Of a stretch of DNA of 32,405 nt, positions 12,842 through 32,405 are shown one piece after another. The stretch spans positions 1 through 32,405 of the forward strand of contig JACQRA010000016.1 in the NCBI GenBank assembly GCA_016206725.1. Direction: 5' to 3'. How positions within the stretch are numbered: position 1 is the first letter of the stretch; each line of letters starts with the position of its first letter. The position numbers and the translations under genes were made by a program. The notes below the pieces were generated by a model. That model had not been told where the DNA came from. It worked only from the letters and a program-made list of their open reading frames with translations, and did no database searches. This DNA is from Candidatus Omnitrophota bacterium (GTDB lineage Bacteria > Omnitrophota > Gorgyraeia > Aquiviventales > Aquiviventaceae).

Positions 12842-14742
12842 GTCGCAGCGTCTGCCGCCTCTTCCGGGCACGTCCTGATGAGCGACGTCCAGACCTCCTC
12901 ATCCACCGACCCGTACATCCGTTCGACCAGGGCCGCCGCGACAGGGCGCACGGGGGTGCCCGCCTTCAGCGTGGCCTCCACGGAAGCGCGCAGTGAAGCG
13001 CCGTTGCAGACCGGCACCGGCATGGCCTCCGGCTCCTGGCCTGCATCGATATCCACCAGATCGGCCCGATACTTCAGCACCGGCACCCCGCACAGGAACG
13101 CCTCCCACCAGCTCGATGTCGGCCCCACGTAGAGCAGCAGGTCGACATCGGGCAGCAACCGTGGCATGGAAAGCTCCGTCATCTTCATCCAGGACGGCAG
13201 CGCGAAGCCGTATGGCACAAGATGCGTCAGGGGCAGCGCGGGGTGGAACTTCAGTAGAAACCGGACCGAGCCGCCAGCCTTCGACTCAGACATGAGCGGC
13301 TGCCTGAACGCCTCCGAAAGGTCCGCCAGCAGACGGCTGGCATGCGGGCGGGAGATCGGAAAGGTTACCAGGACCGTACGGGGGGCTGTCGCGCGGTTCC
13401 GTCCGTAGCGAGCGACCCTCTGCTGAATCAGCTCCTCCAGCTTCGTGTGCAGATACTCATGCCGCAGCGCTCCACCGTTGACCAATCGCGCCAGCGGATA
13501 GCCCCCGATCTTGAGCTGTTCAAGGTTGAACACGCTGCTGGCGACAATCTGATCCGGCAGCGGGGTAATCTCTTCCGCCCCACGGCCCAGGGTATAAGGA
13601 AGCAGCAACGGGGGCACCCAACTGTGCTGATAGCCGACCAATTTGACGTGCGGCGCCCGCTCACGCCACGCGAGGCAAAGGAGCTTTTCCCATGGCTGGT
13701 CCTCGAACGGATAGATCACGCACCGGACCGAGGCGCCGACGCGCCCGGCGAGCCGGCGCATCGCGAAGTAGCCGATCCGGTAGTGCCAGAAATCAACCCG
13801 TCCCCACTCCCGCAGGGTTTCCCGACGCACCAGCCACCGGTAGTCCCATCCCTGACATTGAGCGAGCGCGCCGAGGTGATGAACCCGGAACCACGCGCAG
13901 AGCGTGCGGACAACATCCAGCCAACCAAGATATCTTGGTGTCACGAGACAGGGCACCGCGTGTTGCCGCAGTCGACGCAGCAAGGGCGGTGGAATCTCAG
14001 CGGGGGTCAGACGCGTGACCCGCTCACCGGCGGCCGTCAGCATGGCGTCGAGCCGTCCGGTCCACGCATCGCTCAGGCGTCCGGGCTGCTGAAAACATTC
14101 CGGGCGGATCCAGGTGTAGAGCAGCGTGGTGTCCCGCCGACGGCCCTCAAGCGACTCCCACGTCCGGGGAAACCACAGGCGCACAAGCCCGTACGATGTC
14201 ATCGCCGAACGGACGGTTGCCAGGACGGCGCGAGGGACTCGACTGAGCCACTTCAGCGCATCACGGGCGCAGGCGGCCAGTCCCACGCCTCGCCATGCCA
14301 CACGCAGGTCGCGCCCGAACTGCCAGCGCAGCGTCAGTGCCAACCAGGGGTCCTCCACCACGATGCATCGCACGGTGGCTGGCGGGGTGCTGCACAGCCA
14401 CGCATCGATCAGCCGGGTGTAGCAAATCAGCAGGAACACGTCTGTCTGCAATGGACTGCTCGTGGCGAAGGTCGACGCCCACCAGGAGACATGATCTGGC
14501 TGACGACGGCCGATGGCAACGAGCCAGTCGAGGTATGGCTGCTTCATCTCATGGGCCAACTGGGTGAGGGGCTCTTCGATCGGGATTTCGCGCGCGAGGC
14601 GGAGCGCGGCGGCTGTCCGCGCCCGCGTGGCCTCGTCCGTTCCACAATAGCACCACTCCAGGGGCGCATCCGCCGGGAGCGGCAGGCCGCCCGGAAGGCA
14701 CTCCGGCGCGACGATCCACCAACGGACGTCGGCGGGCGGCAT
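12838..14742 (-). CDS. Large (634 aa) uncharacterised cytoplasmic protein; possible GT-B-like / capsule-type transferase
   Basis: Long ORF with an ATG directly abutting the upstream TAG (TAGATG). It has no TM helices and no textbook catalytic motif. The C-terminal half alternates beta/alpha-like segments (VRCVIYPFED, KLVGYQHSW, TVLVTFPIS, VRFLLKFHP, VDLLLYVGPTSSWWEAFLCGVPVLKY). That pattern resembles the donor-binding half of CDP-glycerol-glycerophosphotransferase- or sialyltransferase-like enzymes. The functional call is weak. Confidence 0.7.
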   Translation of the reverse strand: MPPADVRWWIVAPECLPGGLPLPADAPLEWCYCGTDEATRARTAAALRLAREIPIEEPLTQLAHEMKQPYLDWLVAIGRRQPDHVSWWASTFATSSPLQTDVFLLICYTRLIDAWLCSTPPATVRCIVVEDPWLALTLRWQFGRDLRVAWRGVGLAACARDALKWLSRVPRAVLATVRSAMTSYGLVRLWFPRTWESLEGRRRDTTLLYTWIRPECFQQPGRLSDAWTGRLDAMLTAAGERVTRLTPAEIPPPLLRRLRQHAVPCLVTPRYLGWLDVVRTLCAWFRVHHLGALAQCQGWDYRWLVRRETLREWGRVDFWHYRIGYFAMRRLAGRVGASVRCVIYPFEDQPWEKLLCLAWRERAPHVKLVGYQHSWVPPLLLPYTLGRGAEEITPLPDQIVASSVFNLEQLKIGGYPLARLVNGGALRHEYLHTKLEELIQQRVARYGRNRATAPRTVLVTFPISRPHASRLLADLSEAFRQPLMSESKAGGSVRFLLKFHPALPLTHLVPYGFALPSWMKMTELSMPRLLPDVDLLLYVGPTSSWWEAFLCGVPVLKYRADLVDIDAGQEPEAMPVPVCNGASLRASVEATLKAGTPVRPVAAALVERMYGSVDEEVWTSLIRTCPEEAADAAT

Positions 14743-15399
14743 CTAGCTGGAATCCGCCCCGAATGCTTCGAGGGCGCGCGCCAAGTGAGCCAACGAGGCG
14801 ATCGTGGGACCTACGAAACCCTCCACGGCCGGCGTGCCGGGTGAGGGCCGCCAGATGAAGGGCACGGCGAACTGCCGGGCCGCCAGCCAGTCCGTCTGCG
14901 CATCGCCGACCATGATGACCTCCCACGGCTGCAGCCGTTGCCGCTCCAGCAGTCCCTGGAGCAGGGCGGCCTTATGGGGTGGTGCGCCCAGCACCTCGTC
15001 AAAGAAGTGGTCCATGCGCCGGCAGCGGATGACGTCCTTGAGCTCCGCCTCCGGGCTGCCGGAGACCACGAAGAACCGGTACCGCCCCCGGTGGGCTAGG
15101 AGGAATTCCTCGGCCCCCTCCACCCAAGGCGCCGCCACCAACCGTCTGACCACCAGCGCGGCGAAACGGTCGCACAGCTTCCTGTAAGTCGCCTCATCGA
15201 GCGGGCGTCGCAGGATGTCCCGGTAGATCGTCCGGAACTTCTCAAACCGCGACACGCCGCCATGCGCCTGGTGGTAGGCCACAATCTGCCGCGCGACGGC
15301 TGGTTCTTCGGCCGCGAAGAGCGCCGTAAAGGCCGAGGTCTTGATGGCCTCGGACTCGATCAGCACCCCGTCGAAATCAAACGCAATCGCCCGCACCAT
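14743..15399 (-). CDS. HAD-superfamily hydrolase (phosphatase-like, capped type)
   Basis: ATG 15399 gives MVRAIAFDFDGVLIES (DxDG motif I). An alternative GTG lies at 15405. Later motifs are FFVVSGSP and MVGDAQTD. Confidence 0.85.
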   Translation of the reverse strand: MVRAIAFDFDGVLIESEAIKTSAFTALFAAEEPAVARQIVAYHQAHGGVSRFEKFRTIYRDILRRPLDEATYRKLCDRFAALVVRRLVAAPWVEGAEEFLLAHRGRYRFFVVSGSPEAELKDVIRCRRMDHFFDEVLGAPPHKAALLQGLLERQRLQPWEVIMVGDAQTDWLAARQFAVPFIWRPSPGTPAVEGFVGPTIASLAHLARALEAFGADSS

Positions 15400-15407
15400 C
15401 CCCACAC

Positions 15408-17006
15408 CTAGCTGAACGTGACCTTCCCGTCGTTAAAATAGTTGGCAATGTACTGTTCCCGAAGATCGGCGAAGACGGCATTTCCTTCCTCGTCGTCGAT
15501 CTCAGCGCGCCGGATCGTTGGCCACAACGACTCCGGCAGCCTGGCGTAGAGCGAGAAACACCGCGCGATCCCCGTGATTTCTCGGGGCGAATACTGGGGC
15601 ATCTTGAGGATGGACGCGGCGGTGAGCGAGCACGTGACCGCGTTGTCGTCCAGCAGCCCCAAGGTGACCGCCAACGTTCGCAGCGGGGTCCCGTGATAGG
15701 GCATAAACGTGTAGCAGTTCATCGTGTCCACGATGAGTTCGCGATTGAGCCGGATCGTGTCGAAGGCCAGCTCCCTCGTCTCCGTTGGGAAGCCGGTGAT
15801 GTTGTTCACGGAGACGGGGATGTGACGGCCGATCAGGTTCGTCCGCTTGATCAGCTCTTCATTGGCGATCTGCCGGTCCACCACCTCCCGCCGGAACTGC
15901 TCGTTGCCGTGCTCGATGCCCAGCGACACTCGATGGCAGCCGACGCTCTTGAGCATGTCAACCGCCTCCTCGGTAATCGTCTCAGGCCGCGTCTGCATCC
16001 AGAAGGGGAGCCGGACGTTGCGGTACATCTCAATGAAGGCCTTGAACTCCTCGTTCGACCAGGCGAGGAAGGTGTCAGCCGGAAAGTAGACATACTCGGC
16101 CTTCCAGCGTCTGACGAGTTCGACCAGCTCCTCCTGCACTTTGGTAATGGATTTCTTCCGAAAGAACTTGCCGACGCGGTTTTCCTTGTGGAGCCGGTTC
16201 TGCGACGGCGAGTTGCAATAGGTACACGTGAAGGGGCAGCCCCGGTGCGTCTCGATGGGGATCATCCGGTACACCGTGCCCGCCATCGGGCGGTAGATCC
16301 GGTTCTCCTCAAAAATCTCGAAGTCCAAGATCGGCAGGGTGTCGAGCTCAACGAGGGGGCGCTGGGGGTTGACCTTCGCCTTCCCGTCCGGCCCTTTCAC
16401 CCAGAGGTTGTTGACATCGGAGTAATCCAGCCCCATGGCCATTCGCTCGCACAGTTCGACAAGGGCTCCCTCGCCCTCCCCTACGCAGACCATGTCAATC
16501 GCCGACTCCTCAATGGCGATGTGCGGGGCGAAGGTGGCAAACACCCCACCCAGGATGGTCGGGATCTTTCGGTCCTTGATCTGATTGAGGAGGTAGAGAC
16601 CCTGGAAGTAGGTATCTTCCACCGCGGAGACGGCGATCAGGTCCGGCTGGAACGTGTCCACGAGTTGGAGGAAATCATCGACCATGTCGGTCTCTTTGGG
16701 GGTAATCCCGCGCTCCACGAGGTTGAAGGGCCGCACCTGCAAGGTGAGCTCTTTGCGCTTGTCTGAGCTGATCTCAAACCTGCCGATCCCCTGCCCGCCC
16801 AGCTTCGCCATGGCCATCCCGACGTGGTCCCACGGGTAGTAGGTCGTGTCGAATAGGGCGACCTCAATCCCTTTCTGCTTCAGGAGCGCAGAGAAGATCG
16901 CGATGGAAGGCGGCATCATGTTCATCATGTAGAGATTGGGATAGACGAAGAGTACCTTGAAATGCGGCTGCAGCGCCCCACGGAGGATGGACACCGGCTC
17001 GTTCAC
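15408..17006 (-). CDS. B12-binding-domain radical SAM enzyme (class B), copy 1
   Basis: GTG start 17006 sits in a GTGA overlap with the upstream stop. The N-terminal Rossmann-like cobalamin-binding region carries KVLFVYPN and IPTILGGVFATF. The radical SAM cluster motif is ETHRGCPFTCTYC (CX3CX2C). It is a clear paralogue of 27979..29913. Confidence 0.9.
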   Translation of the reverse strand: MNEPVSILRGALQPHFKVLFVYPNLYMMNMMPPSIAIFSALLKQKGIEVALFDTTYYPWDHVGMAMAKLGGQGIGRFEISSDKRKELTLQVRPFNLVERGITPKETDMVDDFLQLVDTFQPDLIAVSAVEDTYFQGLYLLNQIKDRKIPTILGGVFATFAPHIAIEESAIDMVCVGEGEGALVELCERMAMGLDYSDVNNLWVKGPDGKAKVNPQRPLVELDTLPILDFEIFEENRIYRPMAGTVYRMIPIETHRGCPFTCTYCNSPSQNRLHKENRVGKFFRKKSITKVQEELVELVRRWKAEYVYFPADTFLAWSNEEFKAFIEMYRNVRLPFWMQTRPETITEEAVDMLKSVGCHRVSLGIEHGNEQFRREVVDRQIANEELIKRTNLIGRHIPVSVNNITGFPTETRELAFDTIRLNRELIVDTMNCYTFMPYHGTPLRTLAVTLGLLDDNAVTCSLTAASILKMPQYSPREITGIARCFSLYARLPESLWPTIRRAEIDDEEGNAVFADLREQYIANYFNDGKVTFS

Positions 17007-17905
17007 TTAAGCTCCTCGGCGAGTGCCGCGCTGATTCGCTGACGCTCGTGCATCTCGTTGAGACACGCGAGCAACCCCTGTCCCAGATCAAGGTAATGCT
17101 TCCCCACGAGTTTCTTCGCGATCTTCGGCTGGAAGGTATAGGGACTTCGACGATAGTGGACGAGCGCATCCGGTCCCTGAAACGTGATGGTCAGCTTCTT
17201 GTTGAGCATCTCCTGGATCATCTCCAGTAGGGCTTTCACCGTCATGGGTTGGTGGCCGGTGATGAGCACGTACTGGTTTTCAAATTCCGTGGCGAGTGCC
17301 TCGACACTGTGTCGTGCCGCATCCTCCACATGGATGTACTCTCGAATCTCTTCGCCATCCCCCAGCGAGTCGATCTTGCCCTCAAGGAGCGCCTGGGTCA
17401 GATACCGGTGGACGGCGTTGGTCGCATCCGCCCGCGGACCGTAGAGACTGCCGTACCGAAGGATGGTGTAGGGCAGCCCGTGCACCTGTTGAAACGCCTC
17501 GAGGTACAGCTCGCAGGCCTGCTTGCTACACCGGTAGAAGCCGCCCGCGAGGCTATGCACATAGACGGTGCTGGCGTACAGGACGCGCCGTACGCCGGTC
17601 CGGCGACACGCCTCCAAAAGCATCGTCGTACCCAGGATGTTCTGCCGGACGGTCTCGACGGGACGTTGGTTGGCCTCGTTGATATCCGCGATCCCGGCAA
17701 AGTGGTAGACGATCTCGCAGTCCGTCACCGCGCGCCGAACCGCGGCCTCATCGAGGAGATCCCCAACCATCATCTCCTGGCCGGTCTGCAGGTACGGCGA
17801 AGGGCACCGGTCGTAGATTCTCACGGCATGGCCCCGCTGCGTCAACACGTCGGCCACATGGCTGCCCAGGAATCCTGATCCTCCAAAGACCACCGCGCGC
17901 ATCAT
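17003..17905 (-). CDS. NAD(P)-dependent extended-SDR epimerase/dehydratase/reductase
   Basis: Track ORF trimmed to ATG 17905 (or ATG 17902). GGAGG at 17909..17913 overlaps the upstream TAG. Motifs: MMRAVVFGGSGFLGSHV (GxxGxxG) and YRCSK (YxxxK). The TDE motif of 4,6-dehydratases is absent. Confidence 0.9.
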   Translation of the reverse strand: MMRAVVFGGSGFLGSHVADVLTQRGHAVRIYDRCPSPYLQTGQEMMVGDLLDEAAVRRAVTDCEIVYHFAGIADINEANQRPVETVRQNILGTTMLLEACRRTGVRRVLYASTVYVHSLAGGFYRCSKQACELYLEAFQQVHGLPYTILRYGSLYGPRADATNAVHRYLTQALLEGKIDSLGDGEEIREYIHVEDAARHSVEALATEFENQYVLITGHQPMTVKALLEMIQEMLNKKLTITFQGPDALVHYRRSPYTFQPKIAKKLVGKHYLDLGQGLLACLNEMHERQRISAALAEELK

Positions 17906-17908
17906 CTG

Positions 17909-17913
17909 CCTCC
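17909..17913 (-). promoter_or_regulatory. Shine-Dalgarno (GGAGG) for the extended-SDR gene, overlapping the preceding stop codon
   Basis: Reverse strand reads TAGGAGGCAGATGATG. GGAGG is 3 nt from the first ATG and 6 nt from the second. Confidence 0.45.
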
Positions 17914-18461
17914 TACGGCTGTTCCTGACGATCGCCTCTTTGTCTGAGCACGGTCGCGGGCACCCCAGCCGCCACCGTGTAGGGTGGGATGTCATGTGTG
18001 ACGACGCTATGGGCGCCGATGACGCAACCACGTCCGATCCGGACGCTGCGCGTGACCACCACATGACTCCCCAGCCAGCAGTCGTCTTCGATCACAATCG
18101 CACCGCCCCGATGGCCTTGGTCCTTGATCGGGATCGCCGGGTCGGAAAACACGTGATCGGCCGCCCGAAGGACGCAATAGGGGCCAATGAGAACATTGTT
18201 CCCAATCTCGATTGCTCCCCCATCGCTGGGGTCGAGGACGACGCCGATATTCATGGACACCCCCTCGCCAATCTTCACCCCCTCCGGGCAGTAGATCTTC
18301 AGGCCAGACATCGAATGGAAGCGGCCCGCCTGCTGAAGGAAGCGCCTGTAAAAGGCGTACCGCGCGGCGCCACAGTGATCCGGCAGCATCGCCACAAGCT
18401 GTTGACCGGCATAGAAGCACTCCACGCCGATCCGGCGCTTGAGAGACACCCAAAAGGACAT
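17913..18461 (-). CDS. Left-handed beta-helix (hexapeptide-repeat) acetyltransferase, LacA/WbbJ-like sugar O-acetyltransferase type
   Basis: ATG 18461 lies 1 nt after the upstream TAA. Hexapeptide repeats: IGEGVSMNIGVVL, IEIGNNVLIGPYCVL, IVIEDDCWLGSHVVVTRSVRIGRGCVIGAHSVV, ending AAGVPATVL. Confidence 0.85.
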   Translation of the reverse strand: MSFWVSLKRRIGVECFYAGQQLVAMLPDHCGAARYAFYRRFLQQAGRFHSMSGLKIYCPEGVKIGEGVSMNIGVVLDPSDGGAIEIGNNVLIGPYCVLRAADHVFSDPAIPIKDQGHRGGAIVIEDDCWLGSHVVVTRSVRIGRGCVIGAHSVVTHDIPPYTVAAGVPATVLRQRGDRQEQP

Positions 18462-18462
18462 C

Positions 18463-19209
18463 TTAGTCCCCACCAGCCACGGTCAGGATCTCCCCGGTGA
18501 TGTAATCGCCGGCCCTCGAGGCGAGAAACAGGGCCATGCGAGCGACCTCCACAGGCCGACCGGCTCGTTTGAGCGGAATGAGTTGGATGCGCTTCGCGGC
18601 CTGCGTTCTTCCGATCTTCCGATGAAAGGCCGTCTCGATAAATCCGGCCCGAATGGCATTGACGAGGATGCCATGCGAAGCCCCACACCTCGCCATCCCG
18701 ACCGTGACCGCCTCCATGGCGGCCTTCGCGGCGCCATAATGCAGCGTCTCGGGCGACACGCCGTATTTTGCTGCAATCGAACTGATGTTGATGATCTTCC
18801 CACCCCGCCGCCGCATGAGCCGGAACGCCTCGCGTGCGAGCAGAAACGGCGCGCGCGCGTTCAGGGCCATGGTGCGATCCCAGGACGCTTCCGCGAGTGT
18901 GGCAAACTGGCGGGGACCGAAGACCGCTCCGGCGTTATTCACCAGCACATCAATGCCGCGAAACCGTTTGACGAACGTCTCCATCACCCTGACACACGCT
19001 TGCGGATCCAGGAGATCGCCGTGGCACGCCACCGCCTCCCCGCCACGTCGCGTCACCTCACGACACAGCGCGCGGGCCTGTCGTTCGTTCCGACAGTAGT
19101 GAATGCCGAGGCGCGCACCCTCCGCGGCAAAGAGCCGCGCCATCGCGGTGCCGATCCCCCCGCTGGCGCCGGTGATGAGGACCCGCTTCCCCTTCAGGCC
19201 GTTGAACAT
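18463..19209 (-). CDS. Classical short-chain dehydrogenase/reductase (SDR)
   Basis: Track ORF trimmed to ATG 19209 (MFNGLKGKRVLITGASGGIGTAMA), giving a 16-nt overlap with the upstream gene end. Motifs: NNAG, and the catalytic YGAAK preceded by ISSIAA. Confidence 0.9.
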   Translation of the reverse strand: MFNGLKGKRVLITGASGGIGTAMARLFAAEGARLGIHYCRNERQARALCREVTRRGGEAVACHGDLLDPQACVRVMETFVKRFRGIDVLVNNAGAVFGPRQFATLAEASWDRTMALNARAPFLLAREAFRLMRRRGGKIINISSIAAKYGVSPETLHYGAAKAAMEAVTVGMARCGASHGILVNAIRAGFIETAFHRKIGRTQAAKRIQLIPLKRAGRPVEVARMALFLASRAGDYITGEILTVAGGD

Positions 19210-19979
19210 GTCGTGCGTCTCCTCGGCGCGGTGGGGTACGGGGTCTGCGTGTCGGAGAAGCCATGCGCCCGCAGCCAGTATTCCACCATGGGAACCTGCC
19301 ACTTGAAATCGACGTCGCAGCCGCCCCACTGCTTCAAGGGAGCGATGCGACGCCCCATCCAGCGTTGGGGCAAGAGTCCGTGCGGCAACTGCTCAAGGCA
19401 CTGCGGACGGACGATGGAGACCCCCATGTCGGCGAAATAGACGTCGCCCTGCGAGTCACGGTCGCAGTTGAGGGTAGCCGGATCCCCAAAGGTTTCCAGC
19501 GGAACAAATGGCTGCAGACAGCCGTCATCACCCAGCTTGCGCGCCCGCAGGGGACTCCACATGTTGTACGGCGAGACGGTCACGACCGAATCCAGCCTCG
19601 GATCACGGCGCAGGATCTCGACCCCCTCATCGATTGTGTCCGCCAAGACGGTCGGGGCGTTACAGAAGAGCAGCACCATCAGCTCGACAGGTTTCTTGAG
19701 CGTGTCGCGAATGTAGCGGAACCCATGAGCGAAGGCGTCTTCACCCAGGGCCGTTTTGGTCGCCAGTTCCGGCGGACGTTCGATGATCGTCGTGCCGTGT
19801 TCTCGGGCGAGCTGTTTGATACGCTCCGAATCGGTTGACACATAGATTTCGTCCACGGCTTGCGCATGGAGGGCCGCCAGCAGCGGGTAGGCCATGAGCG
19901 GCCGTCCGAGTACCAGGTGGGTGTTTTTCCCCGGAAACCCCACGCTCCCTTCACGGCCCAACAGGAGTGCGGCGATCAT
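19194..19979 (-). CDS. Divergent CTP_transf_3-family cytidylyltransferase (CMP-sugar synthetase-like), copy 2
   Basis: Trimmed to ATG 19979 (2 nt after the upstream TAA). MIAALLLGREGSVGFPGKN corresponds to the ARGGSKG-x-KN P-loop of NeuA/KdsB-type enzymes but is diverged. It is followed by IYVSTDSERI. Confidence 0.75.
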   Translation of the reverse strand: MIAALLLGREGSVGFPGKNTHLVLGRPLMAYPLLAALHAQAVDEIYVSTDSERIKQLAREHGTTIIERPPELATKTALGEDAFAHGFRYIRDTLKKPVELMVLLFCNAPTVLADTIDEGVEILRRDPRLDSVVTVSPYNMWSPLRARKLGDDGCLQPFVPLETFGDPATLNCDRDSQGDVYFADMGVSIVRPQCLEQLPHGLLPQRWMGRRIAPLKQWGGCDVDFKWQVPMVEYWLRAHGFSDTQTPYPTAPRRRTTCSTA

Positions 19980-19981
19980 CG

Positions 19982-21139
19982 TTAGACCACCGTACAGCGG
20001 TTGCACGGTGAGCAGCGTGGCCGCTGTGACGTCAGATGGCGTTCACGGAGCTCTTCGTACCGTTCTGAACGCCACAAGGCGCTCAGAGACTGCTCGTTGG
20101 CACTACCGATGGTGAGCGTTGACTTGTAATCCACGTCGCACGGGTTCACGGTTCCGTCCCACCAGACAAACATCCGCCGCCATAAATCGGAGCAGGCGGT
20201 CTCGACGCCGGTGGCCGGGTGGTCGTAGACGTTTTCCCACGGGTTGTACGTCACGAAGGCCACCTGATCCACGAACTCCTCCCAGACCGAGGCCATCCGC
20301 TCCAGATCCGGCGTGCCGGGAACACTCACACCAGAGACGCGCGTGATCACGCGCGAGCGGGGGTAATGGTCCGCCCGAATTCGGTGGAACCGCTCAATGT
20401 TGGCCCGCACCTCGGCAAACCGGCCGCCGACGCGCAGGCGCTCGTACAATGCCGCGTCGGCCGCCTCCACAGAAAAGACCACCGTGTTCACCTCAGCTTC
20501 CAGAATCGCATGGCAGGCGGCCTCATCCAGCCGCGAGGCGTTGGTGTTGAGCTTCAGCGCCAAGAACTTGCCCTTGGCGTAGGCCAGCATCGCGTCAATG
20601 TCCGGACACAGCAGCGGCTCGCCCCGCGAGGCCAGCGTCACCGCCTCACAGCAGCCCCCCGCCTCATCAATCACGCGCTTGAAGAGGTCGAGGGACATCA
20701 CACCCATGTAGCCGTTCGTCCGCTTCGTCAAACCGGCATCCGTCTGGTAGCAGAACACGCATCGGTAGTTGCAGACCGAGGCCGGTTCCACCTGGAGGCA
20801 CGGCGGAAACGCGTCCAAGATGTTCCTGCTCGGATACGTCTCATACCGGTAGCGGTACCACAGGTACCGCGGCAACGCCTCGTCAGGAAGTCGGCTGATC
20901 TCTTCCACCACGTACGTCTGCAGGACAAACGGCACGCCGTCCTGAGGCGGCGCCTCGCCGAACAGCTCTGCGCAGGCTTGACGCACCACGGCCCGACGGC
21001 CCGTGTCAGGCTCGAGCGCCTCGAGTCGGTCTCGCACCCGCGCGATTCGCCTGAAGACATCCTCCGCCACCGGGCTGCGGTGATGCATCGCGGCGAAGCT
21101 ATCGTGTTTCTGGTAGGTGGCGACTCCCTTGATGGCCAT
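19982..21139 (-). CDS. Radical SAM enzyme with partial SPASM/twitch C-terminal domain and ~110-aa N-terminal extension
   Basis: ATG 21139. The radical SAM cluster is VEPASVCNYRCVFC (CX3CX2C). The C-terminal CSDLWRRMFVWWDGTVNPC fits CX12GX4C, followed by RCSPCNRC (CX2CX2C). Confidence 0.85.
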   Translation of the reverse strand: MAIKGVATYQKHDSFAAMHHRSPVAEDVFRRIARVRDRLEALEPDTGRRAVVRQACAELFGEAPPQDGVPFVLQTYVVEEISRLPDEALPRYLWYRYRYETYPSRNILDAFPPCLQVEPASVCNYRCVFCYQTDAGLTKRTNGYMGVMSLDLFKRVIDEAGGCCEAVTLASRGEPLLCPDIDAMLAYAKGKFLALKLNTNASRLDEAACHAILEAEVNTVVFSVEAADAALYERLRVGGRFAEVRANIERFHRIRADHYPRSRVITRVSGVSVPGTPDLERMASVWEEFVDQVAFVTYNPWENVYDHPATGVETACSDLWRRMFVWWDGTVNPCDVDYKSTLTIGSANEQSLSALWRSERYEELRERHLTSQRPRCSPCNRCTVV

Positions 21140-21143
21140 GTCC

Positions 21144-22916
21144 TCACACGTGAGAAGCGCTCGGCGGTGGCAGCTCGCTCAGGGTGTCCGACCAACGAGA
21201 CGCCCAGTGACGGTCCACCAGCGCGTAACGCTCCACGAATTGATGACGCGCCTGGCGGACGTCTGTGCGGCGCCACCACGCCTGTGGCTGGTCGCACACG
21301 GTTGCGACGTGGCCGGCCGCAGCCTCCGGCTCATCCCACAAGATCCCCGCCTCACGCAGCGCGTGAAGGTATGGCGCGGCCTCCGCCCGGACCTCCCACC
21401 GCCGTGGATCCCAGAAGAGCACGGTCGGGATATTGGCGGCAAGCGTTTCGAGGAAGACCGTCGCCGAATGATCCACGATGACCAGCCGGGCCTTCGCGAA
21501 CTGTCGATGAATCGGCACCGCCGGCTGCCACCGGACCTCCGGAAACCGTTCACGGATGCCTTCCTCTACGGCATGCCCATAGTCATGGGGATACGGACGA
21601 AAGAGCACCCGGCGTCGCACCCGTTCAGGCAGGGCGTCCAGGAACCGACGCTGCCAACGGAAGTATTCCTCCACTTGACCGCCCACCGGCGTGGACTGAA
21701 ACTGGTAGAGGTACCGGGGATGCGCGGTGGTAACGAACAAGAACGCACCGTCCCGCGCCGCGGGCGCGTGGCGCAGCGTGCGAGTGAGCGCCGAGAGATT
21801 CGGAGACGGCAGATTCCGGCAGATGGGGTGATGATCCCCGGCCCAGCCCCATACTAGAAAGGCGTCCGAGAGGCGAGCCTCGTGTCGTTCGATCGGCGAA
21901 AAGCGATAGAGCCCGTATCCGCCGCCGTGCTGCACCGAAATGAGCCGACCGCCGCCGGCTGACACCTCGGCCGCGAGGAAGCGAAACGGGCTGTTGCTAT
22001 ACCACGTGTTGGTCGCCACGAGGACGGCAGGAACTGCTGGATAGCGACGCCGCACTTCCTCCCTGGCTTGTCGGTAGCCTTCGAGGAAGAGCGTGGGAAG
22101 GTGAAACGGCAGCATCGGCATGACGAGCCGCTCAAAGGGATCTCCACTGGGCAGGCGGGAGAGCCCATTCCGAGCCTCGTCAAACCTCGCGTCGGGGAGC
22201 GCGAATCCCCAATCCCTCGACACCTCCAACGGCATGACGCGGCCGGCCGTCTTCCAGGCCAATGACCAGCTCATCATCCGCGATCGACAGACATCCTGCA
22301 GTCCCACCTTCCACCGACGACGTAGCGCGCGCCGGACCATGTCTTCGCCGCGCCGTATGCCGACACGCCGAGGGCTCTGACACGCGCCATTGACCGCGTC
22401 CTCCGGCGCGGCTCTCCCTCGTGCCGGAAACGCATGCCCCATTCCCGCGAGGAGCTGAGAGAAGAGCTGGAGGTTGGCGAAATCGTCATGGAGCCAGCCA
22501 CGGGCTTGCTCAGGCTCCTGCGGCACACGAAACGACCGGGGATCGAGCACGAGGGTCCGCAGGTTGGGAGCCTGCTGGAAGGCCTCCGTGAGATGGACAT
22601 AACGGTCGTAGGCGGCATGAAGGAAGGACAGCAACCATGACCCAAGGAGCACGCGCCACGACTGCAGCGGATACGCAACGCCATGAACCGCGTTCAGGTA
22701 GTTGGCCAGACGCTCGAGCATCCGTTCACCACAGCCATCCACATAGTCGGCGGCTTCGTAGAAGCGCTCTCGGTCATTCCAGGGCGAGGGCATCACGCGG
22801 AAGCGCAGGTGCGCCCAGTACCTCCGTTGATCCTGGCGAAGGCACCAAGAACCCAGGCACAGGACTTCCTCGCGGGGATCCCAGAAGTCGGTCAATGCCG
22901 TCGTCGCGAGGAACAT
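21144..22916 (-). CDS. Large (590 aa) putative transferase resembling the 'LIC12162 family' found in nonulosonic-acid loci
   Basis: Trimmed to ATG 22916 (1 nt after the upstream TAA). The N-terminus MFLATTALTDFWDPREEVLCLGSWC and the central ISVQHGGGYGL...AFLVWGW match my memory of that family. The C-terminal ARLVIVDHSATVFLETLAANIPTVLFW looks like a GT-B donor-domain helix. The family assignment is from recall and is not searched. Confidence 0.7.
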   Translation of the reverse strand: MFLATTALTDFWDPREEVLCLGSWCLRQDQRRYWAHLRFRVMPSPWNDRERFYEAADYVDGCGERMLERLANYLNAVHGVAYPLQSWRVLLGSWLLSFLHAAYDRYVHLTEAFQQAPNLRTLVLDPRSFRVPQEPEQARGWLHDDFANLQLFSQLLAGMGHAFPARGRAAPEDAVNGACQSPRRVGIRRGEDMVRRALRRRWKVGLQDVCRSRMMSWSLAWKTAGRVMPLEVSRDWGFALPDARFDEARNGLSRLPSGDPFERLVMPMLPFHLPTLFLEGYRQAREEVRRRYPAVPAVLVATNTWYSNSPFRFLAAEVSAGGGRLISVQHGGGYGLYRFSPIERHEARLSDAFLVWGWAGDHHPICRNLPSPNLSALTRTLRHAPAARDGAFLFVTTAHPRYLYQFQSTPVGGQVEEYFRWQRRFLDALPERVRRRVLFRPYPHDYGHAVEEGIRERFPEVRWQPAVPIHRQFAKARLVIVDHSATVFLETLAANIPTVLFWDPRRWEVRAEAAPYLHALREAGILWDEPEAAAGHVATVCDQPQAWWRRTDVRQARHQFVERYALVDRHWASRWSDTLSELPPPSASHV

Positions 22917-22917
22917 C

Positions 22918-24492
22918 TTACCGACGCGCTCTCCCGGCGGCCAATCGTGGCACGACACCCGACCATCCCCCCCGCCACACCATCCATCCCATCGCGCCCC
23001 AGACGGCAACCGCCAAGACGGTTCGTCCCATAAAGACCGTCAGGACCGGCGACGTCCCCTCATAGGAGAAGGGCCCCAGGTGATACACGCCAAAAAGCCC
23101 GCCGGTCACCAGAACGAGTCCTCCCAGCCATCCGTAGAGCGAGAGGCCGCTTCGCCATCCCGTCACGACATAGCGATGGATCAGCAGCAGCAGCGCCACC
23201 GAGAACATCGTCTGCGCGGCAACGCTACACAGGACGATACCGTGCAACCCCCAGCCGGCACGGATCGCCCACGTCGTCAACCCGATGTGGAGCGCAAAAC
23301 CGCTTCCCCACATCGCGGTGACCAGCCGATGCCGGTTGAGCGTCGCCGAGTTCAAGAGATAGACGGGGACGTTCTGAAGCGTCCCCGCGGCCAACAGAAA
23401 CGCGAAGAGTTCAAAGAGGCCGATGGCCGGCTGATAGCGGGGGAGCAGCCAGTGCACGAGGGCGCCACACCACGCCTGGCTCAGGCTGGTCATCGCGCAC
23501 GTCACCAACAAGAGCCAGCAGAGGAGCCGGCGGATCTGAGGACCAAGCACCTGAGGATTCGCGACCCGTTCGAGCTCAGCCCAGAGGCGCGGATAGATGA
23601 CGATGATGAGATTGATCACCATGAGCACGCCTAAGGACACGCACTGCTTCACGAAGGTGAAATAGCCCAGCTCGGTCAGGGGGAGGGCCACCGCGGCCAT
23701 CGCCTGATCCACGGATCGGAAGCCCCAACACAGAAACGTCTGCAGCGACAGGGGCAGTCCGACGGCCAGTAACCGTCGGCATTCCCGGGGATCCCAACGC
23801 CATCGTAGCGCAAGCGTCGGCGCCCATAACCGGAAGCCGAGGAGCGTCGTCAGAGCGATCACCGTCGTTTTCAACAGGGGGCTGTAGATCTTGAGCCACG
23901 CGATCGTGCTCAGCACAAATATCACAGAGCCAAGGCTGCTCAGCACGGTCGTCTTCGCCATCACCGGAAAGCGTTCACGAATAAAGTGAAGGCCGGTGAC
24001 GAAGTCGGCCGCTTGAGAACCGATGAATCCCACCGCGCCAATGAGCAAACCGTGGCGCAGCCAGGGGTGGGATTGCAGGCAGGCGGCTCCCACCATCACG
24101 CCCGCCACCAGCAGCACCCAGATGCCTTCTCCGGTCACGCCGACATGTTGAAGGGCCGTCGCCTCTCGTGATTTTCCCTGCCCCAAGAGGGCAGTGGCCT
24201 CCCGTTGCGCGGCGCTATAGATACCGGTCTTGGCCATCGAGGCATACAGTTGCCAGACGGCGACGAACCCCACGACCCCCAGCCCTTCCGGTCCCAGCAC
24301 ATGAGCTACCAGAAGCCCAAGGGGAAATTGGATCAACGCATTCAGGATCGTGGCGGCAGAGAGCGCGGTCGATCGACGCAGGAAGGCCCGAAACGACAGC
24401 GCGCTTTCCTTCGCCGGGCCCGTCCACGACTCCACGAGCGCCGGAGGCGGCGCGTGGGAGATGTCCGGGAGGATCGCGGCTTCACGGGTCAT
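22918..24492 (-). CDS. MOP-superfamily polysaccharide/oligosaccharide flippase (Wzx-like)
   Basis: Trimmed to ATG 24492 (ATGA overlap). The protein is 524 aa with ~12-14 hydrophobic helices throughout (ATILNALIQFPLGLLVAHVLGPEGLGVVGF...). This is typical of Polysacc_synt/Wzx proteins. Confidence 0.78.
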   Translation of the reverse strand: MTREAAILPDISHAPPPALVESWTGPAKESALSFRAFLRRSTALSAATILNALIQFPLGLLVAHVLGPEGLGVVGFVAVWQLYASMAKTGIYSAAQREATALLGQGKSREATALQHVGVTGEGIWVLLVAGVMVGAACLQSHPWLRHGLLIGAVGFIGSQAADFVTGLHFIRERFPVMAKTTVLSSLGSVIFVLSTIAWLKIYSPLLKTTVIALTTLLGFRLWAPTLALRWRWDPRECRRLLAVGLPLSLQTFLCWGFRSVDQAMAAVALPLTELGYFTFVKQCVSLGVLMVINLIIVIYPRLWAELERVANPQVLGPQIRRLLCWLLLVTCAMTSLSQAWCGALVHWLLPRYQPAIGLFELFAFLLAAGTLQNVPVYLLNSATLNRHRLVTAMWGSGFALHIGLTTWAIRAGWGLHGIVLCSVAAQTMFSVALLLLIHRYVVTGWRSGLSLYGWLGGLVLVTGGLFGVYHLGPFSYEGTSPVLTVFMGRTVLAVAVWGAMGWMVWRGGWSGVVPRLAAGRARR

Positions 24493-26362: not shown

Positions 26363-27357
26363 CGGACACGTGCCTCCTCATGGTGTGGCATGGTCTCGAC
26401 ACTCGCTCGGCGCGCCTCCACAGGCTGTGCGATGAGCACCCACAACGCGGCATGCTCGGCGGAAGGGGCGAGGCTCTTGGCGAACCACGGCCGCACCCGC
26501 CTAGCCAAGAGCGGCACGATGAGCCGCTTGAGCAACCCCTTCAGTCGGAGAGATTGCAACGCGCGACCCAACAGCACCAGCCCGTGCAGGATTGGGCGCG
26601 TGCTCATGTCCCATCGGCGAACCGCTCCGACGTGTAGAACCGGTATCGCCCCGTGCAACCGGAAACCCGCCGCGGTGAGCCGTTCTTCCCACTGCGCGCG
26701 ATGGCCGGTGAGTCGCGTCAGCGTGCGAAAGCGGCCGTTGTCAATCCACTCGAAGAACCGGGCACGCCAGTGGCGACCGTTGCGCCGGTATCGTTGGGCG
26801 CGATGATGCGACTGGAGTTGCCCGCCGAAGGTATCGTTCGGCACCACCAGCACGAGTCGACCGTCATCCCGCACAACGCGATGCATCTCGCGCAACCCGG
26901 CCTGCCAATCCGGCAGCCAGTAGAGGATATTGCAGAAGACCGTCGCAAACGAACGATGAGCGAACGGCAGCGCCTGCCCGTCACCCTGCACCAGGGAGCG
27001 ATACGTCGCCGTCCGTCGGGCCTTGTCGAGTAAGCCCGCCTTGTGGTCCAGCCCGACCGTCACGAGCCGTCGGGGGGGTGTGGCCTCGAGGCGCGTCATC
27101 GACGCGGCCGTGTCGTAGAGATCGCCGCGCAGGCGCAGGCGGGTGTCGGTATAGCGGTCATACGAGAGCCGCACCCGCCCTCCCGACGCGATCAGCATGA
27201 AGAGCCCGTCGCCGCAGCCCATATCCAGCGAGGGCTCGCCCATCAGCATCGACGCCAGGACGGACGCCACCGACGCATCCCACACCGCGTCGAAGGGTTT
27301 GAGCCAGTTCGCTTCGAGGAAGCGACGCAGGCAGCGTTCAGCGTCTGCTGACGGCAT
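26359..27357 (-). CDS. Class I SAM-dependent methyltransferase
   Basis: Track ORF trimmed to ATG 27357, giving a 20-nt overlap with the upstream gene end; the start is uncertain. Motif I is SLDMGCGDGLF. Later motifs: FATVFCNILYWLPD and VVRDDGRLVLVVPND. Confidence 0.8.
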   Translation of the reverse strand: MPSADAERCLRRFLEANWLKPFDAVWDASVASVLASMLMGEPSLDMGCGDGLFMLIASGGRVRLSYDRYTDTRLRLRGDLYDTAASMTRLEATPPRRLVTVGLDHKAGLLDKARRTATYRSLVQGDGQALPFAHRSFATVFCNILYWLPDWQAGLREMHRVVRDDGRLVLVVPNDTFGGQLQSHHRAQRYRRNGRHWRARFFEWIDNGRFRTLTRLTGHRAQWEERLTAAGFRLHGAIPVLHVGAVRRWDMSTRPILHGLVLLGRALQSLRLKGLLKRLIVPLLARRVRPWFAKSLAPSAEHAALWVLIAQPVEARRASVETMPHHEEARVR

Positions 27358-32151: not shown

Positions 32152-32405
32152 TAGTAGGCCAAGGCCTTGAAGAGCAGCCGCTCATCAAGGGGAATAGTGG
32201 AGAGTGTTTCAAGAATTCGCTCGCTGGCATGGCCGTCTCCGTACGGATTCTGCAACCCCGACAAGCCGGCGCGAAAGGCGGACGAAAGTGCGCGCTCGAT
32301 GGCGCTCAGGATGGCGCCTTTCTCGTGGCCCACGTTCAAGACATTGCCAGCCTGCATCCGACCCGCCTGCCGACGCCCGATGTTCACCACCGGCAGCTCA
32401 AAGGA
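32151..32405 (-). CDS. neuC: UDP-N-acetylglucosamine 2-epimerase (hydrolysing), NeuC/LegG/PseG-neighbour type; C-terminal 84 aa only, 5' end outside the window
   Basis: The frame is open to the window edge: SFELPVVNIGRRQAGRMQAGNVLNVGHEKGAILSAIERAL...LQNPYGDGHASERILETL. The NIGxRQxGR and NPYGDGxAS motifs are characteristic of the C-terminus of NeuC-type Epimerase_2 enzymes. Confidence 0.8.
   Translation of the reverse strand, partial: SFELPVVNIGRRQAGRMQAGNVLNVGHEKGAILSAIERALSSAFRAGLSGLQNPYGDGHASERILETLSTIPLDERLLFKALAY

What the first reader, a model, noticed from the sequence alone, without database searches (positions are those of the whole stretch)
19982..21139. Radical SAM/SPASM-type enzyme with a long N-terminal extension inside a sugar pathway and no peptide substrate gene
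It has a CNYRCVFC cluster plus CX12GX4C and a terminal CX2CX2C, meaning auxiliary Fe-S site(s). About 110 aa precede the radical SAM core (…RYLWYRYRYETYPSRN…). SPASM/twitch enzymes mostly mature peptides, but BtrN-type members oxidise aminoglycoside sugars and some radical SAMs epimerise sugars. Here it sits 2 nt upstream of a divergent cytidylyltransferase, with no small ORF or intergenic space for a precursor peptide. That points to radical oxidation, epimerisation or deoxygenation of a sugar nucleotide. It is the third radical SAM enzyme in the locus.
Basis: partly seen in the sequence, partly recalled or inferred. Interest (0 to 1): 0.7.

Follow-up and report, generated by a model that had tools for sequence, protein, structure and literature searches.

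The report
Sugar-pathway radical SAM enzyme, uncharacterised family
This gene encodes a member of a widespread but unstudied family of iron-sulfur "radical SAM" enzymes that is almost always encoded beside a sialic-acid-type sugar-activating enzyme, so it most likely remodels a cell-surface sugar rather than a peptide.

Summary
Window 19982-21139 (-) is a real 385-aa gene with a radical SAM core, a C-terminal Fe-S domain and a conserved 112-aa N-terminal extension. It lies 2 nt from a cytidylyltransferase gene and 4 nt from a LIC12162-family transferase gene.

One refinement: across 82 family members only seven Cys are invariant, three for the radical SAM cluster and four for a single auxiliary cluster. 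These four sit at the same spacing as the corresponding cysteines of BtrN; three fall inside the printed alignment. The enzyme is therefore a BtrN-like "twitch" enzyme, not a two-cluster SPASM enzyme.

The N-extension is an all-helical domain found only in this family. It is not an RRE.

The family occurs in at least 10 phyla, including Nitrospira, Nitrospina, SAR11 and Elusimicrobia. It travels in a shuffled but conserved module with a NeuA/PseF-like cytidylyltransferase (74/86 loci, 52 adjacent, in either order), a GalE-like enzyme, an SDR and/or 2-hydroxyacid dehydrogenase, a HAD hydrolase and often a B12-radical SAM enzyme. The module sits in nonulosonic-acid/polysaccharide loci.

Best model, inferred and not shown: it oxidises a secondary alcohol on a (CMP-)ulosonic acid, the way ElaA is proposed to in ElaABC, and the SDR then reduces the ketone. 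No curated family or paper covers it. I rate it a new variant of a known kind, of moderately high interest.

The parts
19982..21139 (-). RS: the radical SAM/twitch enzyme gene (385 aa plus stop)
   Evidence: ORF. Pfam Radical_SAM and SPASM. Full-length homologues.
20804..21139 (-). Family-specific N-terminal extension (aa 1-112). It is all-helical. K11, S14, E80, Y92, R96, Y99 and P103 are at least 97% conserved.
   Evidence: Alignments. AF2 models (pLDDT 81, pTM 0.85; pLDDT 85.5). No PDB fold match. A profile search of 1.84 billion representatives found only 180 hits; all but one repetitive outlier lie at protein N-termini.
20750..20773 (-). CX3CX2C motif (C123, C127, C130), the ligands of the radical SAM [4Fe-4S] cluster
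   Evidence: 100% conserved in 82 sequences.
19991..20194 (-). Twitch-type auxiliary-cluster domain (aa 316-383). Invariant C316, C334, C379 and C382; C376 is not conserved.
   Evidence: Pfam SPASM hit. Family profile against BtrN, E 1.2e-13, with RS C334/C379/C382 aligned to BtrN Cys 187/232/235. Cys conservation.
19194..19979 (-). CTPa: NeuA/PseF-like cytidylyltransferase, probably translationally coupled to RS (2-nt spacer)
   Evidence: Pfam CTP_transf_3. Weak PseF match in NCBIfam. Best PDB hits are CMP-NeuAc/CMP-Pse synthetases, 6IFD at E 3e-13. Found in 74/86 RS loci, adjacent in 52. Homologues are 70-85% identical across phyla.
18463..19209 (-). FabG-like short-chain dehydrogenase/reductase (start codon inferred at M41 of the listed ORF)
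   Evidence: Pfam adh_short_C2, E 1e-55. PDB hits. Found in 48/86 RS loci.
17913..18473 (-). Hexapeptide-repeat acyltransferase. It is a variable accessory gene of the module and occupies the slot usually held by a 2-hydroxyacid dehydrogenase.
17003..18064 (-). GalE-like NAD-dependent epimerase/dehydratase (the true start is probably about 50 codons downstream)
   Evidence: Pfam Epimerase. Best PDB hit is the 6WJB/6WJ9 NAD-dependent epimerase/dehydratase family protein. Found in 63/86 RS loci at about 49% identity.
15408..17006 (-). B12-binding radical SAM enzyme (putative C-methyltransferase), a frequent module accessory
   Evidence: Found in 32/86 loci.
14743..15405 (-). HAD-superfamily hydrolase (HAD_2 type)
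   Evidence: Found in 36/86 loci.
12838..14742 (-). 634-aa protein distantly related to TIGR04326 (LIC13510-type surface carbohydrate biosynthesis protein); candidate transferase for the module's product
   Evidence: It follows the HAD gene or RS in 13 loci.
21144..23009 (-). LIC12162-family transferase, immediately upstream of RS
   Evidence: NCBIfam TIGR04331, 451 bits against a cut-off of 225.
27338..27997 (-). CTPb: a second, PseF-like cytidylyltransferase in the locus
32154..32405 (-). 3' end of a NeuC-like hydrolysing 2-epimerase gene, cut by the contig end. It shows that nonulosonic-acid genes lie just upstream.
   Evidence: tblastn, 55% identity to L002 NeuC aa 296-379. The adjacent CBS gene is at 31807-32151.

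Best explanation
RS belongs to an uncharacterised, phylogenetically broad family of BtrN-like 'twitch' radical SAM enzymes. It has one SAM-cleaving [4Fe-4S] cluster and one fully Cys-ligated auxiliary [4Fe-4S] cluster. A family-specific, Arg/Tyr-rich helical N-terminal domain probably helps bind an anionic sugar substrate.

RS works inside a conserved glycan-tailoring module. Its obligate partner there is a NeuA/PseF-like cytidylyltransferase (CTPa).

The most likely reaction runs as follows. The 5'-deoxyadenosyl radical abstracts H from a carbinol carbon of a (CMP-)nonulosonic/ulosonic acid. The auxiliary cluster takes the second electron, and a keto-sugar results. This is BtrN-type dehydrogenation. 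It is the role that the Gfo/Idh/MocA enzyme ElaA is proposed to play in the Acinetobacter ElaABC C8-epimerisation system.

The co-encoded FabG-like SDR and/or GalE-like enzyme then reduces the ketone, giving net epimerisation. In some loci a DegT aminotransferase would instead aminate it. The product is transferred to the polysaccharide by the ~600-aa LIC12162/TIGR04326-type proteins.

Shown: the gene, the motifs, the cluster count, the homology ranking, the family-specific N-domain and the conserved gene neighbourhood. Inferred: the substrate identity, the dehydrogenase chemistry, the role of the N-domain and the division of labour with the SDR.
For: - Domains and motifs.
- Exactly seven Cys are invariant in 82 diverse members (C123/127/130 and C316/334/379/382), and no other Cys is conserved.
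- BtrN is the best solved relative. The family profile scores E 1.2e-13 against it, over both the core and the twitch domain. Three of the four auxiliary Cys align column for column; the fourth lies just outside the alignment at identical 18-residue spacing.
- Foldseek's top hits include the sugar-acting DesII, BtrN and BlsE.
- The lack of a conserved free Cys argues against the Cys-donor epimerase mechanism and for dehydrogenase-type chemistry (plus established knowledge of HygY, NeoN and EpeE).
- CTPa is in 74/86 loci. It is adjacent in 52 (32 upstream, 20 downstream) and within 3 kb in 71, on the same strand as RS in all but one. Adjacency that survives inversion of gene order indicates functional coupling.
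- CTPa's best solved relatives are CMP-NeuAc/CMP-Pse synthetases.
- In 15 of the 22 loci that show NeuB, NeuC or PtmE genes, CTPa is the only cytidylyltransferase found.
- The window itself ends in a NeuC fragment.
- The order RS-CTPa-SDR mirrors ElaA-ElaB-ElaC. ElaB was solved using 6IFD as the search model, and ElaC is a FabG-like SDR (PMC13656337).
- DegT overlaps the RS start in L084, and a 28%-identical paralogue directly follows DegT in L024. This recalls the BtrN/BtrS pair.
Against: - There are no biochemical data for any family member, and no literature.
- The module holds more redox enzymes than a simple epimerisation needs: SDR, GalE-like enzyme, 2-hydroxyacid dehydrogenase and a HAD.
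- A recurrent cytidylyltransferase-2-hydroxyacid-dehydrogenase fusion hints at chemistry at C1/C2 of an acid sugar that this model does not explain.
- Many hosts are aerobes (SAR11, Nitrospira). An NAD-dependent dehydrogenase would be cheaper for them, which suggests the radical step may do something NAD chemistry cannot.
- NeuB lies within 10 kb in only 9 of 42 loci with full flanks.
- A few RS genes sit alone among unrelated genes.
- Similarity to BtrN is remote.
Confidence: 0.45

Rival explanations
1. RS is a radical SAM lyase, either a diol dehydratase or an amino-alcohol deaminase in the manner of AprD4 or DesII. It would remove a hydroxyl or amino group from the (CMP-)sugar to give a deoxy-keto intermediate. 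The adjacent SDR would then reduce it, so the net result is deoxygenation, as with AprD4/AprD3.
For: DesII is the top Foldseek hit (E 3.6e-11) and is a significant sequence hit for the core. RS is next to or near an SDR in about half of the loci.
Against: From established knowledge, DesII and AprD4 have no auxiliary cluster. RS has an invariant, fully ligated one whose closest relative is BtrN's. The DesII similarity covers only the generic core, and TM is about 0.49 for all top hits.
Confidence: 0.18
2. RS is a direct radical SAM sugar epimerase of the HygY/NeoN/AviX12 type. It would invert one stereocentre of the nonulosonic acid by abstracting H and returning it to the opposite face. The centre could be an N-acylated carbon such as C5 or C7.
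For: Twitch enzymes include sugar epimerases (established knowledge). The EpeE epimerase is among the fold hits. Natural C7/C8 epimers of legionaminic acid exist, and their enzymology is unresolved (PMC5595891). Aerobic hosts keeping a radical enzyme suggests chemistry at an unactivated C-H.
Against: No non-cluster Cys is conserved: C178 68%, C56 44%, C209 59%. Known radical SAM epimerases use a conserved Cys as H donor. A Tyr or another donor cannot be excluded.
Confidence: 0.12
3. RS helps build the acid sugar itself, or performs other new chemistry. For example, it might convert an aldonic acid into a 2-keto-3-deoxy (ulosonic) acid, or form a C-C bond, on a route that does not use NeuB. CTPa would then activate the product.
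For: NeuB is absent within 10 kb in 33 of 42 loci with full flanks. A 2-hydroxyacid dehydrogenase occurs in 44/86 loci and is repeatedly fused to a CTPa-like domain. HAD and SDR enzymes could supply a dephosphorylated, oxidised precursor; the SDR scores close to the glucose-1-dehydrogenase model.
Against: Polysaccharide loci often exceed the 20 kb examined. The window and several other loci do carry NeuB, NeuC or PtmE genes. No twitch enzyme is known to do this.
Confidence: 0.12
4. RS is a protein or peptide maturase. It could be a RiPP enzyme, an anSME-like enzyme, or a maturase of a neighbouring enzyme such as the unusually conserved CTPa.
For: Most SPASM/twitch enzymes modify peptides. The top NCBIfam hits are putative metalloenzyme maturases, though far below their cut-offs. 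CTPa is more conserved than RS (61% vs 53% mean identity) and nearly always adjacent. One JGI record carries an automatic 'AslB' name.
Against: There is no RRE fold. There is no precursor ORF, with spacers of 2 and 4 nt. No sulfatases occur in any neighbourhood. The anSME model scores 26 against a cut-off of 349. anSME-type enzymes need two auxiliary clusters and RS has one. RS occurs without CTPa in some loci.
Confidence: 0.05

Closest known systems
BtrN (2-deoxy-scyllo-inosamine dehydrogenase, butirosin pathway; PDB 4M7T)
   Same: Best solved relative by sequence (profile E 1.2e-13). Both have a radical SAM core with the GEPLxC motif and a C-terminal twitch domain. The four auxiliary-cluster Cys are equivalently placed. 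Both act on a carbohydrate-type small molecule and neither has a peptide substrate.
   Different: BtrN is about 250 aa with no N-terminal domain and an abridged barrel, and it works in aminoglycoside synthesis on a cyclitol. RS has a 112-aa family-specific N-domain and a longer core. It sits beside a CMP-sugar synthetase in polysaccharide loci. Similarity is remote, so RS is not an orthologue.
ElaABC module of Acinetobacter baumannii KL49 (proposed C8 epimerisation of CMP-legionaminic acid; PMC13656337)
   Same: Both have three consecutive genes: an oxidising enzyme, a PseF-like CTP-transferase and a FabG-like SDR. Both lie within a nonulosonic-acid locus. CTPa's best PDB hit (6IFD) is the model that was used to solve ElaB.
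   Different: [quoted passage not shown] The RS module usually also carries a GalE-like enzyme, a HAD, a 2-hydroxyacid dehydrogenase and a B12-radical SAM gene. I made no direct sequence comparison with the Ela proteins.
DesII (TDP-4-amino-4,6-dideoxyglucose deaminase/dehydrogenase; PDB 8HZY)
   Same: Top structural hit. It is a radical SAM enzyme acting on a nucleotide sugar, and it has a long segment before the CX3CX2C motif.
   Different: From established knowledge, DesII has no auxiliary cluster. The isolated RS N-domain shows no fold similarity to it.
SPASM peptide/protein maturases (anSME, PqqE, SuiB, sactisynthases)
   Same: Pfam SPASM hit and overall fold similarity.
   Different: Those enzymes carry two auxiliary clusters (7-8 Cys) and usually an RRE and a precursor or target protein. 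RS has one auxiliary cluster, no RRE and no precursor.
Twitch sugar epimerases and dehydrogenases of aminoglycoside pathways (HygY, NeoN, SpeY)
   Different: They occur in antibiotic gene clusters of actinomycetes, not in cell-surface glycan loci. The epimerases among them depend on a conserved Cys H-donor that RS lacks.

Membership tests
Radical SAM superfamily | CX3CX2C motif binding the SAM-cleaving [4Fe-4S] cluster, with a Pfam PF04055 match above threshold | tested here: met
   C123/C127/C130 are 100% conserved. PF04055 scores 63.5 bits against a cut-off of 29.5.
Radical SAM superfamily | Reductive cleavage of SAM to the 5'-deoxyadenosyl radical | not testable with these tools
   Requires an anaerobic enzyme assay.
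SPASM subfamily (two auxiliary clusters) | Seven-Cys motif CX9-15GX4C...CX2CX5CX3C...C ligating two auxiliary [4Fe-4S] clusters | tested here: not met
   PF13186 matches (56 bits), but only four Cys are conserved after the core (C316, C334, C379, C382). C376 is a Cys in 16% of members.
Twitch subclass (BtrN-like, one auxiliary cluster) | A truncated SPASM domain with a CX~17C...CX2C set of four ligands for a single auxiliary cluster | tested here: met
   RS C334, C379 and C382 align to BtrN Cys 187, 232 and 235. The 18-residue spacing of C316-C334 equals that of the BtrN pair, and the profile E-value is 1.2e-13. All four are invariant. The cluster itself has not been observed.
BtrN orthologues (DOIA dehydrogenase) | Size and architecture of about 250 aa, and an aminoglycoside (2-deoxystreptamine) gene context | tested here: not met
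   RS is 385 aa with an extra N-domain, and its context is polysaccharide/nonulosonic-acid genes.
Anaerobic sulfatase-maturing enzymes | A match to TIGR03942 above its cut-off, two auxiliary clusters, and sulfatase genes nearby | tested here: not met
   26.4 bits against 349. One auxiliary cluster. No sulfatase in any of the neighbourhoods inspected.
RiPP radical SAM maturases with an RRE | An N-terminal PqqD-like RRE (three strands plus three helices) and an adjacent precursor peptide gene | tested here: not met
   The N-domain is all-helical. There is no PDB fold match at E<=1 (best E 4.0) and no PqqD Pfam hit at E<=1. The spacers are 2 and 4 nt.
Any curated NCBIfam radical SAM family (W_rSAM_matur, rSAM_Geo_metal, spiroSPASM, N_Twi_rSAM and others) | A score above the family's curated cut-off | tested here: not met
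   The best score is 82.5 bits against a cut-off of 380. All 25 families listed (of 53 matched) are far below their cut-offs.
ElaABC-type nonulosonic-acid epimerisation module | A PseF/NeuA-like CTP-transferase and a FabG-like SDR encoded together in a nonulosonic-acid locus | tested here: met
   CTPa against 6IFD, E 3e-13. The SDR is FabG-like. A NeuC fragment and a CBS gene lie at the window edge.
ElaABC-type nonulosonic-acid epimerisation module | A Gfo/Idh/MocA NAD(P) dehydrogenase (ElaA) as the oxidising enzyme | tested here: not met
   No Gfo/Idh/MocA gene is in the window's module. RS occupies that position, so the resemblance is functional analogy only.

The most novel reading that the evidence does not exclude
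The RS-CTPa module may make a so far undescribed class of CMP-activated ulosonic or nonulosonic acid in some of the most abundant environmental bacteria (SAR11, Nitrospira, Nitrospina, Elusimicrobia). RS would perform a radical step that no NAD-dependent enzyme can do. Examples are inversion of an N-acylated stereocentre, side-chain deoxygenation, or formation of the 2-keto-3-deoxy acid itself by a route independent of NeuB. The new N-terminal domain would recognise the CMP or carboxylate part of the substrate.
Probability: 0.22. Interest if true: 0.8.

Novelty: new variant of a known kind. Interest (0 to 1): 0.6.

Why it matters
Radical SAM enzymes that tailor sugars are known almost entirely from antibiotic pathways. 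This family would carry BtrN-type radical chemistry into primary cell-surface glycan synthesis, on CMP-activated sialic-acid-like sugars.

The family is found in at least 171 species-level genomes (a lower bound) across at least 10 phyla. These include globally dominant marine and nitrifying bacteria whose surface glycans are essentially unknown. The surface glycans shape phage susceptibility, grazing and immune recognition.

The tight RS-cytidylyltransferase pairing gives a directly testable substrate hypothesis. The family-specific N-domain and the recurrent cytidylyltransferase-dehydrogenase fusion point to enzymology that has not been described.

Tried and rejected
- RRE hypothesis. I modelled the N-domain both within the full protein and alone and searched the PDB by fold. 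Nothing was significant, so I rejected it.
- N-domain in other protein architectures. A profile search of 1.84 billion representatives gave 180 hits. All but one lie at N-termini of family members or fragments. The exception is a repetitive 1314-aa protein that I judged spurious. No new context emerged.
- Literature. Searches for radical SAM with SPASM plus cytidylyltransferase, with legionaminic acid, with nonulosonic, and with twitch/nucleotide-sugar/O-antigen terms found nothing relevant.
- The two ~600-aa proteins. PDB sequence searches found no hits, and they are not detectably related to each other by BLASTP.
- Plasmid collection. It holds only ~24-28%-identical core homologues, from Brachyspira, Azospirillum and Neorhizobium. 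No cultured organism with a known glycan structure carries a close RS.
- Viperin- or MoaA-like action on the nucleotide. I considered it because of weak NCBIfam core hits. I rejected it because those matches cover only the generic core.
- Identity of the N-terminal half of spiro-SPASM proteins. I suspected a cytidylyltransferase domain, which would be a natural fusion. I could not test this because I had no sequence.
- A search for module variants in which RS is replaced by an NAD-dependent dehydrogenase. This was not feasible with the tools' best-80 limit.
Full report
**1. The observation**

Window 19982-21139 (-) is an ATG-initiated ORF of 385 aa. Pfam finds Radical_SAM at aa 118-254 (E 3.5e-17) and SPASM at aa 316-383 (E 4.3e-15), both above their gathering scores.

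About 112 residues precede the core and contain RYLWYRYRYETYPSRN.

On the minus strand the stop codon is followed by 'cg' and then the ATG (19979) of a CTP_transf_3 gene. The upstream LIC12162-family gene ends 4 nt before the RS start. All genes from 12838 to 29913 abut or overlap, so there is no room for a precursor peptide.

Two B12-binding radical SAM genes lie at 15408-17006 and 27979-29913. The window is 63.6% G+C, and the 420-aa ORF on the opposite strand is a shadow ORF. The minus-strand gene is real: more than 120 full-length homologues share 55-72% identity with it.

**2. Cluster count and nearest relatives**

I extracted RS orthologues from the loci fetched from genomes and metagenomes and aligned 82 distinct sequences, which are 43-69% identical to the window protein. 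Exactly seven Cys are invariant: 123, 127 and 130, plus 316, 334, 379 and 382. The others are not conserved: C376 is a Cys in 16% of members, C56 in 44%, C178 in 68% and C209 in 59%.

The family therefore has one radical SAM cluster and one auxiliary cluster with four Cys ligands. That is a twitch domain, not a two-cluster SPASM domain.

A profile of the family finds BtrN as its best solved relative (E 1.2e-13). The match covers both the core, including the shared GEPLxC motif, and the twitch domain. RS C334, C379 and C382 align to BtrN Cys 187, 232 and 235. The C316-C334 spacing of 18 residues equals that of the BtrN pair (single-sequence search). CteB, anSME and DesII follow, matching over the core only.

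Foldseek with the AlphaFold model (pLDDT 81, pTM 0.85) ranks DesII first, then SuiB, MoaA, BtrN, SkfB, BlsE, anSME, AbmM and EpeE. All have TM of about 0.4-0.5. This confirms the fold class and little more.

No curated NCBIfam family is reached. The best score is 82 bits against a cut-off of 380, and anSME scores 26 against 349.

**3. The N-terminal extension**

The extension is conserved across the family. K11, S14, E80, Y92, R96, Y99 and P103 are at least 97% conserved.

It is predicted with confidence as four or five helices. Modelled alone it gives pLDDT 85.5. In the full model it also includes one short strand. An RRE has three strands followed by three helices, and this domain does not.

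Foldseek against the PDB returns nothing better than E = 4, although that library contains many RRE structures. Pfam gives no PqqD hit at E<=1.

A profile of the extension searched against 1.84 billion representative proteins gave only 180 hits. All but one lie at protein N-termini, in ~385-aa family members or in fragments. The exception is a repetitive 1314-aa protein that I regard as spurious.

The extension is therefore a family-specific domain. Its invariant Arg/Tyr-rich helix (R91-Y-L-x-Y-R-x-R-Y-E) would suit binding of a phosphate or carboxylate group, but that is my inference.

**4. Genomic context in the window**

The whole 32-kb contig is one minus-strand polysaccharide locus. In order of transcription it encodes:

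- a NeuC fragment at the contig edge
- a CBS protein
- a deacetylase
- a formyltransferase
- a B12-radical SAM enzyme
- a PseF-like cytidylyltransferase (CTPb)
- a methyltransferase, a PhyH dioxygenase and a second methyltransferase
- a Wzx flippase
- a LIC12162-family transferase
- RS
- CTPa
- a FabG-like SDR
- a hexapeptide acyltransferase
- a GalE-like enzyme
- a B12-radical SAM enzyme
- a HAD hydrolase
- a 634-aa TIGR04326-like protein
- a GT2 glycosyltransferase, a DegT aminotransferase, a GT4 glycosyltransferase and Wzy
- an AsnB-like enzyme, a carbamoyltransferase and further transferases

**5. Comparative context**

The best 80 come from Nitrospirota, Nitrospinota, Omnitrophota, Elusimicrobiota, Acidobacteriota, Planctomycetota, KSB1, Cyanobacteria, Actinobacteria and many Proteobacteria, including numerous SAR11 single-cell genomes.

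I ran tblastn with the window's proteins, plus a few neighbour proteins from other loci, against 86 loci.

| Gene | Loci with a homologue (of 86) | Note |
|---|---|---|
| CTPa | 74 | adjacent in 52 (32 upstream, 20 downstream); within 3 kb in 71; same strand in all but one |
| GalE-like | 63 | |
| SDR | 48 | |
| 2-hydroxyacid dehydrogenase | 44 | nearly always next to the GalE-like gene |
| HAD | 36 | |
| B12-radical SAM | 32 | |
| TIGR04326-like | 13 | |

Precomputed Pfam annotation of five metagenomic contigs shows the same module. Adjacency of RS and CTPa survives inversion of their order across phyla. That is strong evidence of functional coupling rather than inherited synteny.

CTPa is even more conserved than RS, with a mean identity of 61% against 53% and homologues 70-85% identical across phyla. 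Its best solved relatives are CMP-NeuAc/CMP-Pse synthetases, with 6IFD at E 3e-13. By eye it keeps the N-terminal GxGSxGxPGKN motif and a C-terminal DxD motif.

Of the 22 loci that show NeuB, NeuC or PtmE genes, 21 have CTPa and only 6 have a second cytidylyltransferase. In most such loci CTPa therefore appears to be the enzyme that activates the nonulosonic acid.

A minority of RS genes lack the module nearby, namely L026, L049, L074 and L084.

**6. Mechanistic reading**

The closest analogue with partial experimental support is ElaABC of A. baumannii KL49. There a CTP-transferase (ElaB, solved with 6IFD as the search model) is proposed to make CMP-legionaminic acid. A Gfo/Idh/MocA dehydrogenase (ElaA) is proposed to oxidise C8. 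A FabG-like SDR (ElaC) is proposed to reduce the ketone to the epimer (PMC13656337). Related aci genes in the same species are predicted to yield the C7 and C8 epimers (PMC5595891).

The RS-CTPa-SDR trio has the same layout, with a BtrN-like radical SAM enzyme in ElaA's place. BtrN itself is a radical alternative to an NAD-dependent alcohol dehydrogenase, and it feeds a DegT-family aminotransferase (established knowledge).

Three observations favour dehydrogenase chemistry over the alternatives:

- The auxiliary cluster is invariant and fully ligated. The lyases DesII and AprD4 have none (established knowledge).
- No conserved free Cys is available as an H-atom donor, as the known radical SAM epimerases require.
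- DegT overlaps the RS start in L084. A 28%-identical paralogue with the same seven Cys directly follows DegT in L024.

I put the dehydrogenase model at about 0.45. The broader statement, that RS is a small-molecule glycan-tailoring partner of CTPa and not a peptide maturase, I put at about 0.8.

**7. What the model does not explain**

- The module usually carries more redox enzymes than one epimerisation needs.
- A 2-hydroxyacid dehydrogenase is present in half of the loci. In L004, L025, L057 and L086 it is fused to a second CTPa-like domain. This suggests chemistry next to the carboxylate, which is blocked in a CMP-glycoside.
- The role of the HAD hydrolase is unknown.
- Strict aerobes retain an oxygen-sensitive enzyme.

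These points keep the rival readings alive: lyase plus reductase, direct epimerase, or a route to the ulosonic acid that does not use NeuB.

**8. Novelty and verdict**

No paper in the searchable library links radical SAM enzymes with nonulosonic acids or cytidylyltransferases. No curated family covers RS. Source annotations are generic.

The enzyme class, a twitch radical SAM enzyme acting on a sugar, is known. The family, its N-domain, its pairing with a CMP-sugar synthetase and its setting in surface-glycan loci of abundant environmental bacteria are new. My verdict is a real feature and a new variant of a known kind.

Noticed in passing
window 32154-32405 (-) and 31807-32151 (-): The contig ends inside a NeuC-like hydrolysing 2-epimerase gene (55% identical to L002 NeuC aa 296-379), and a small CBS-domain gene follows it. 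The order NeuC-CBS matches that in L002, so NeuB and the rest of a nonulosonic-acid pathway probably lie just beyond the window.
   Followed up: partly
L004 8203-9996; L025 7158-9095; L057 14072-15853; L086 8242-10008: A ~590-645-aa fusion recurs next to RS or CTPa. It joins a CTPa-like cytidylyltransferase domain (about 40% identical to CTPa) to a PGDH/glyoxylate-reductase-like 2-hydroxyacid dehydrogenase. It links cytidylyl transfer to oxidation or reduction next to a carboxylate. I have no explanation for it.
   Followed up: partly
L024 2941-4077 (and DegT at 1883-2941); L084 8874-10004 with RS at 10001: A distant RS paralogue (28% identity, same seven-Cys pattern, shorter N-terminus) sits directly after a DegT aminotransferase. 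In L084 DegT overlaps the RS start. This arrangement recalls the BtrN/BtrS pair.
   Followed up: partly
L087 (Brachyspira hyodysenteriae pBHWA1, NC_012226.1 2927-19847): The 36-kb plasmid carries seven radical SAM/SPASM genes in the stretch examined, five of them consecutive (the match is 27% identical to the RS core). They lie with a large HAD-IA protein, an ATP-grasp ligase, an rfbC gene and rhamnan-synthesis genes. This is another uncharacterised set of radical SAM genes in a glycan locus.
   Followed up: no
window 15408-17006 (-) and 27979-29913 (-): The locus has two B12-binding radical SAM enzymes. The first type is a frequent member of the RS module (32/86 loci) and often lies directly next to RS, which suggests C-methylation of the same sugar.
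   Followed up: partly
window 24489-27417 (-): A PhyH-family Fe/2-oxoglutarate dioxygenase (25295-26362) lies between two SAM methyltransferases and directly downstream (in transcription order) of the second cytidylyltransferase. This may be a hydroxylation/O-methylation tailoring set for the other CMP-sugar.
   Followed up: no
window 12838-14742 (-) and 21144-23009 (-): Two ~620-630-aa proteins, one weakly TIGR04326-like and one of the LIC12162 family, have no solved homologue by sequence and no detectable similarity to each other. They are candidate CMP-sugar transferases, one for each cytidylyltransferase.
   Followed up: partly
window 878-8281 (-): The downstream part of the locus encodes unusual fusions and amide- or carbamoyl-forming enzymes: GT1 fused to DUF218 (878-2830), a polysaccharide deacetylase fused to a methyltransferase (2722-4668), a carbamoyltransferase (4578-6296) and an AsnB-like amidotransferase (6281-8281).
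   Followed up: no
window 20219-21481 (+): A 420-aa ORF lies antisense to RS. I found no evidence for it and regard it as a shadow ORF typical of 64% G+C DNA.
   Followed up: yes
L026, L049 (RS at about 10 kb in each): A few RS orthologues (53-56% identical) sit alone among housekeeping genes, such as ThrRS, a Ser/Thr kinase and RsmB. No module gene lies within 10 kb apart from one opposite-strand 2-hydroxyacid dehydrogenase homologue about 4 kb from RS in L026.
   Followed up: partly
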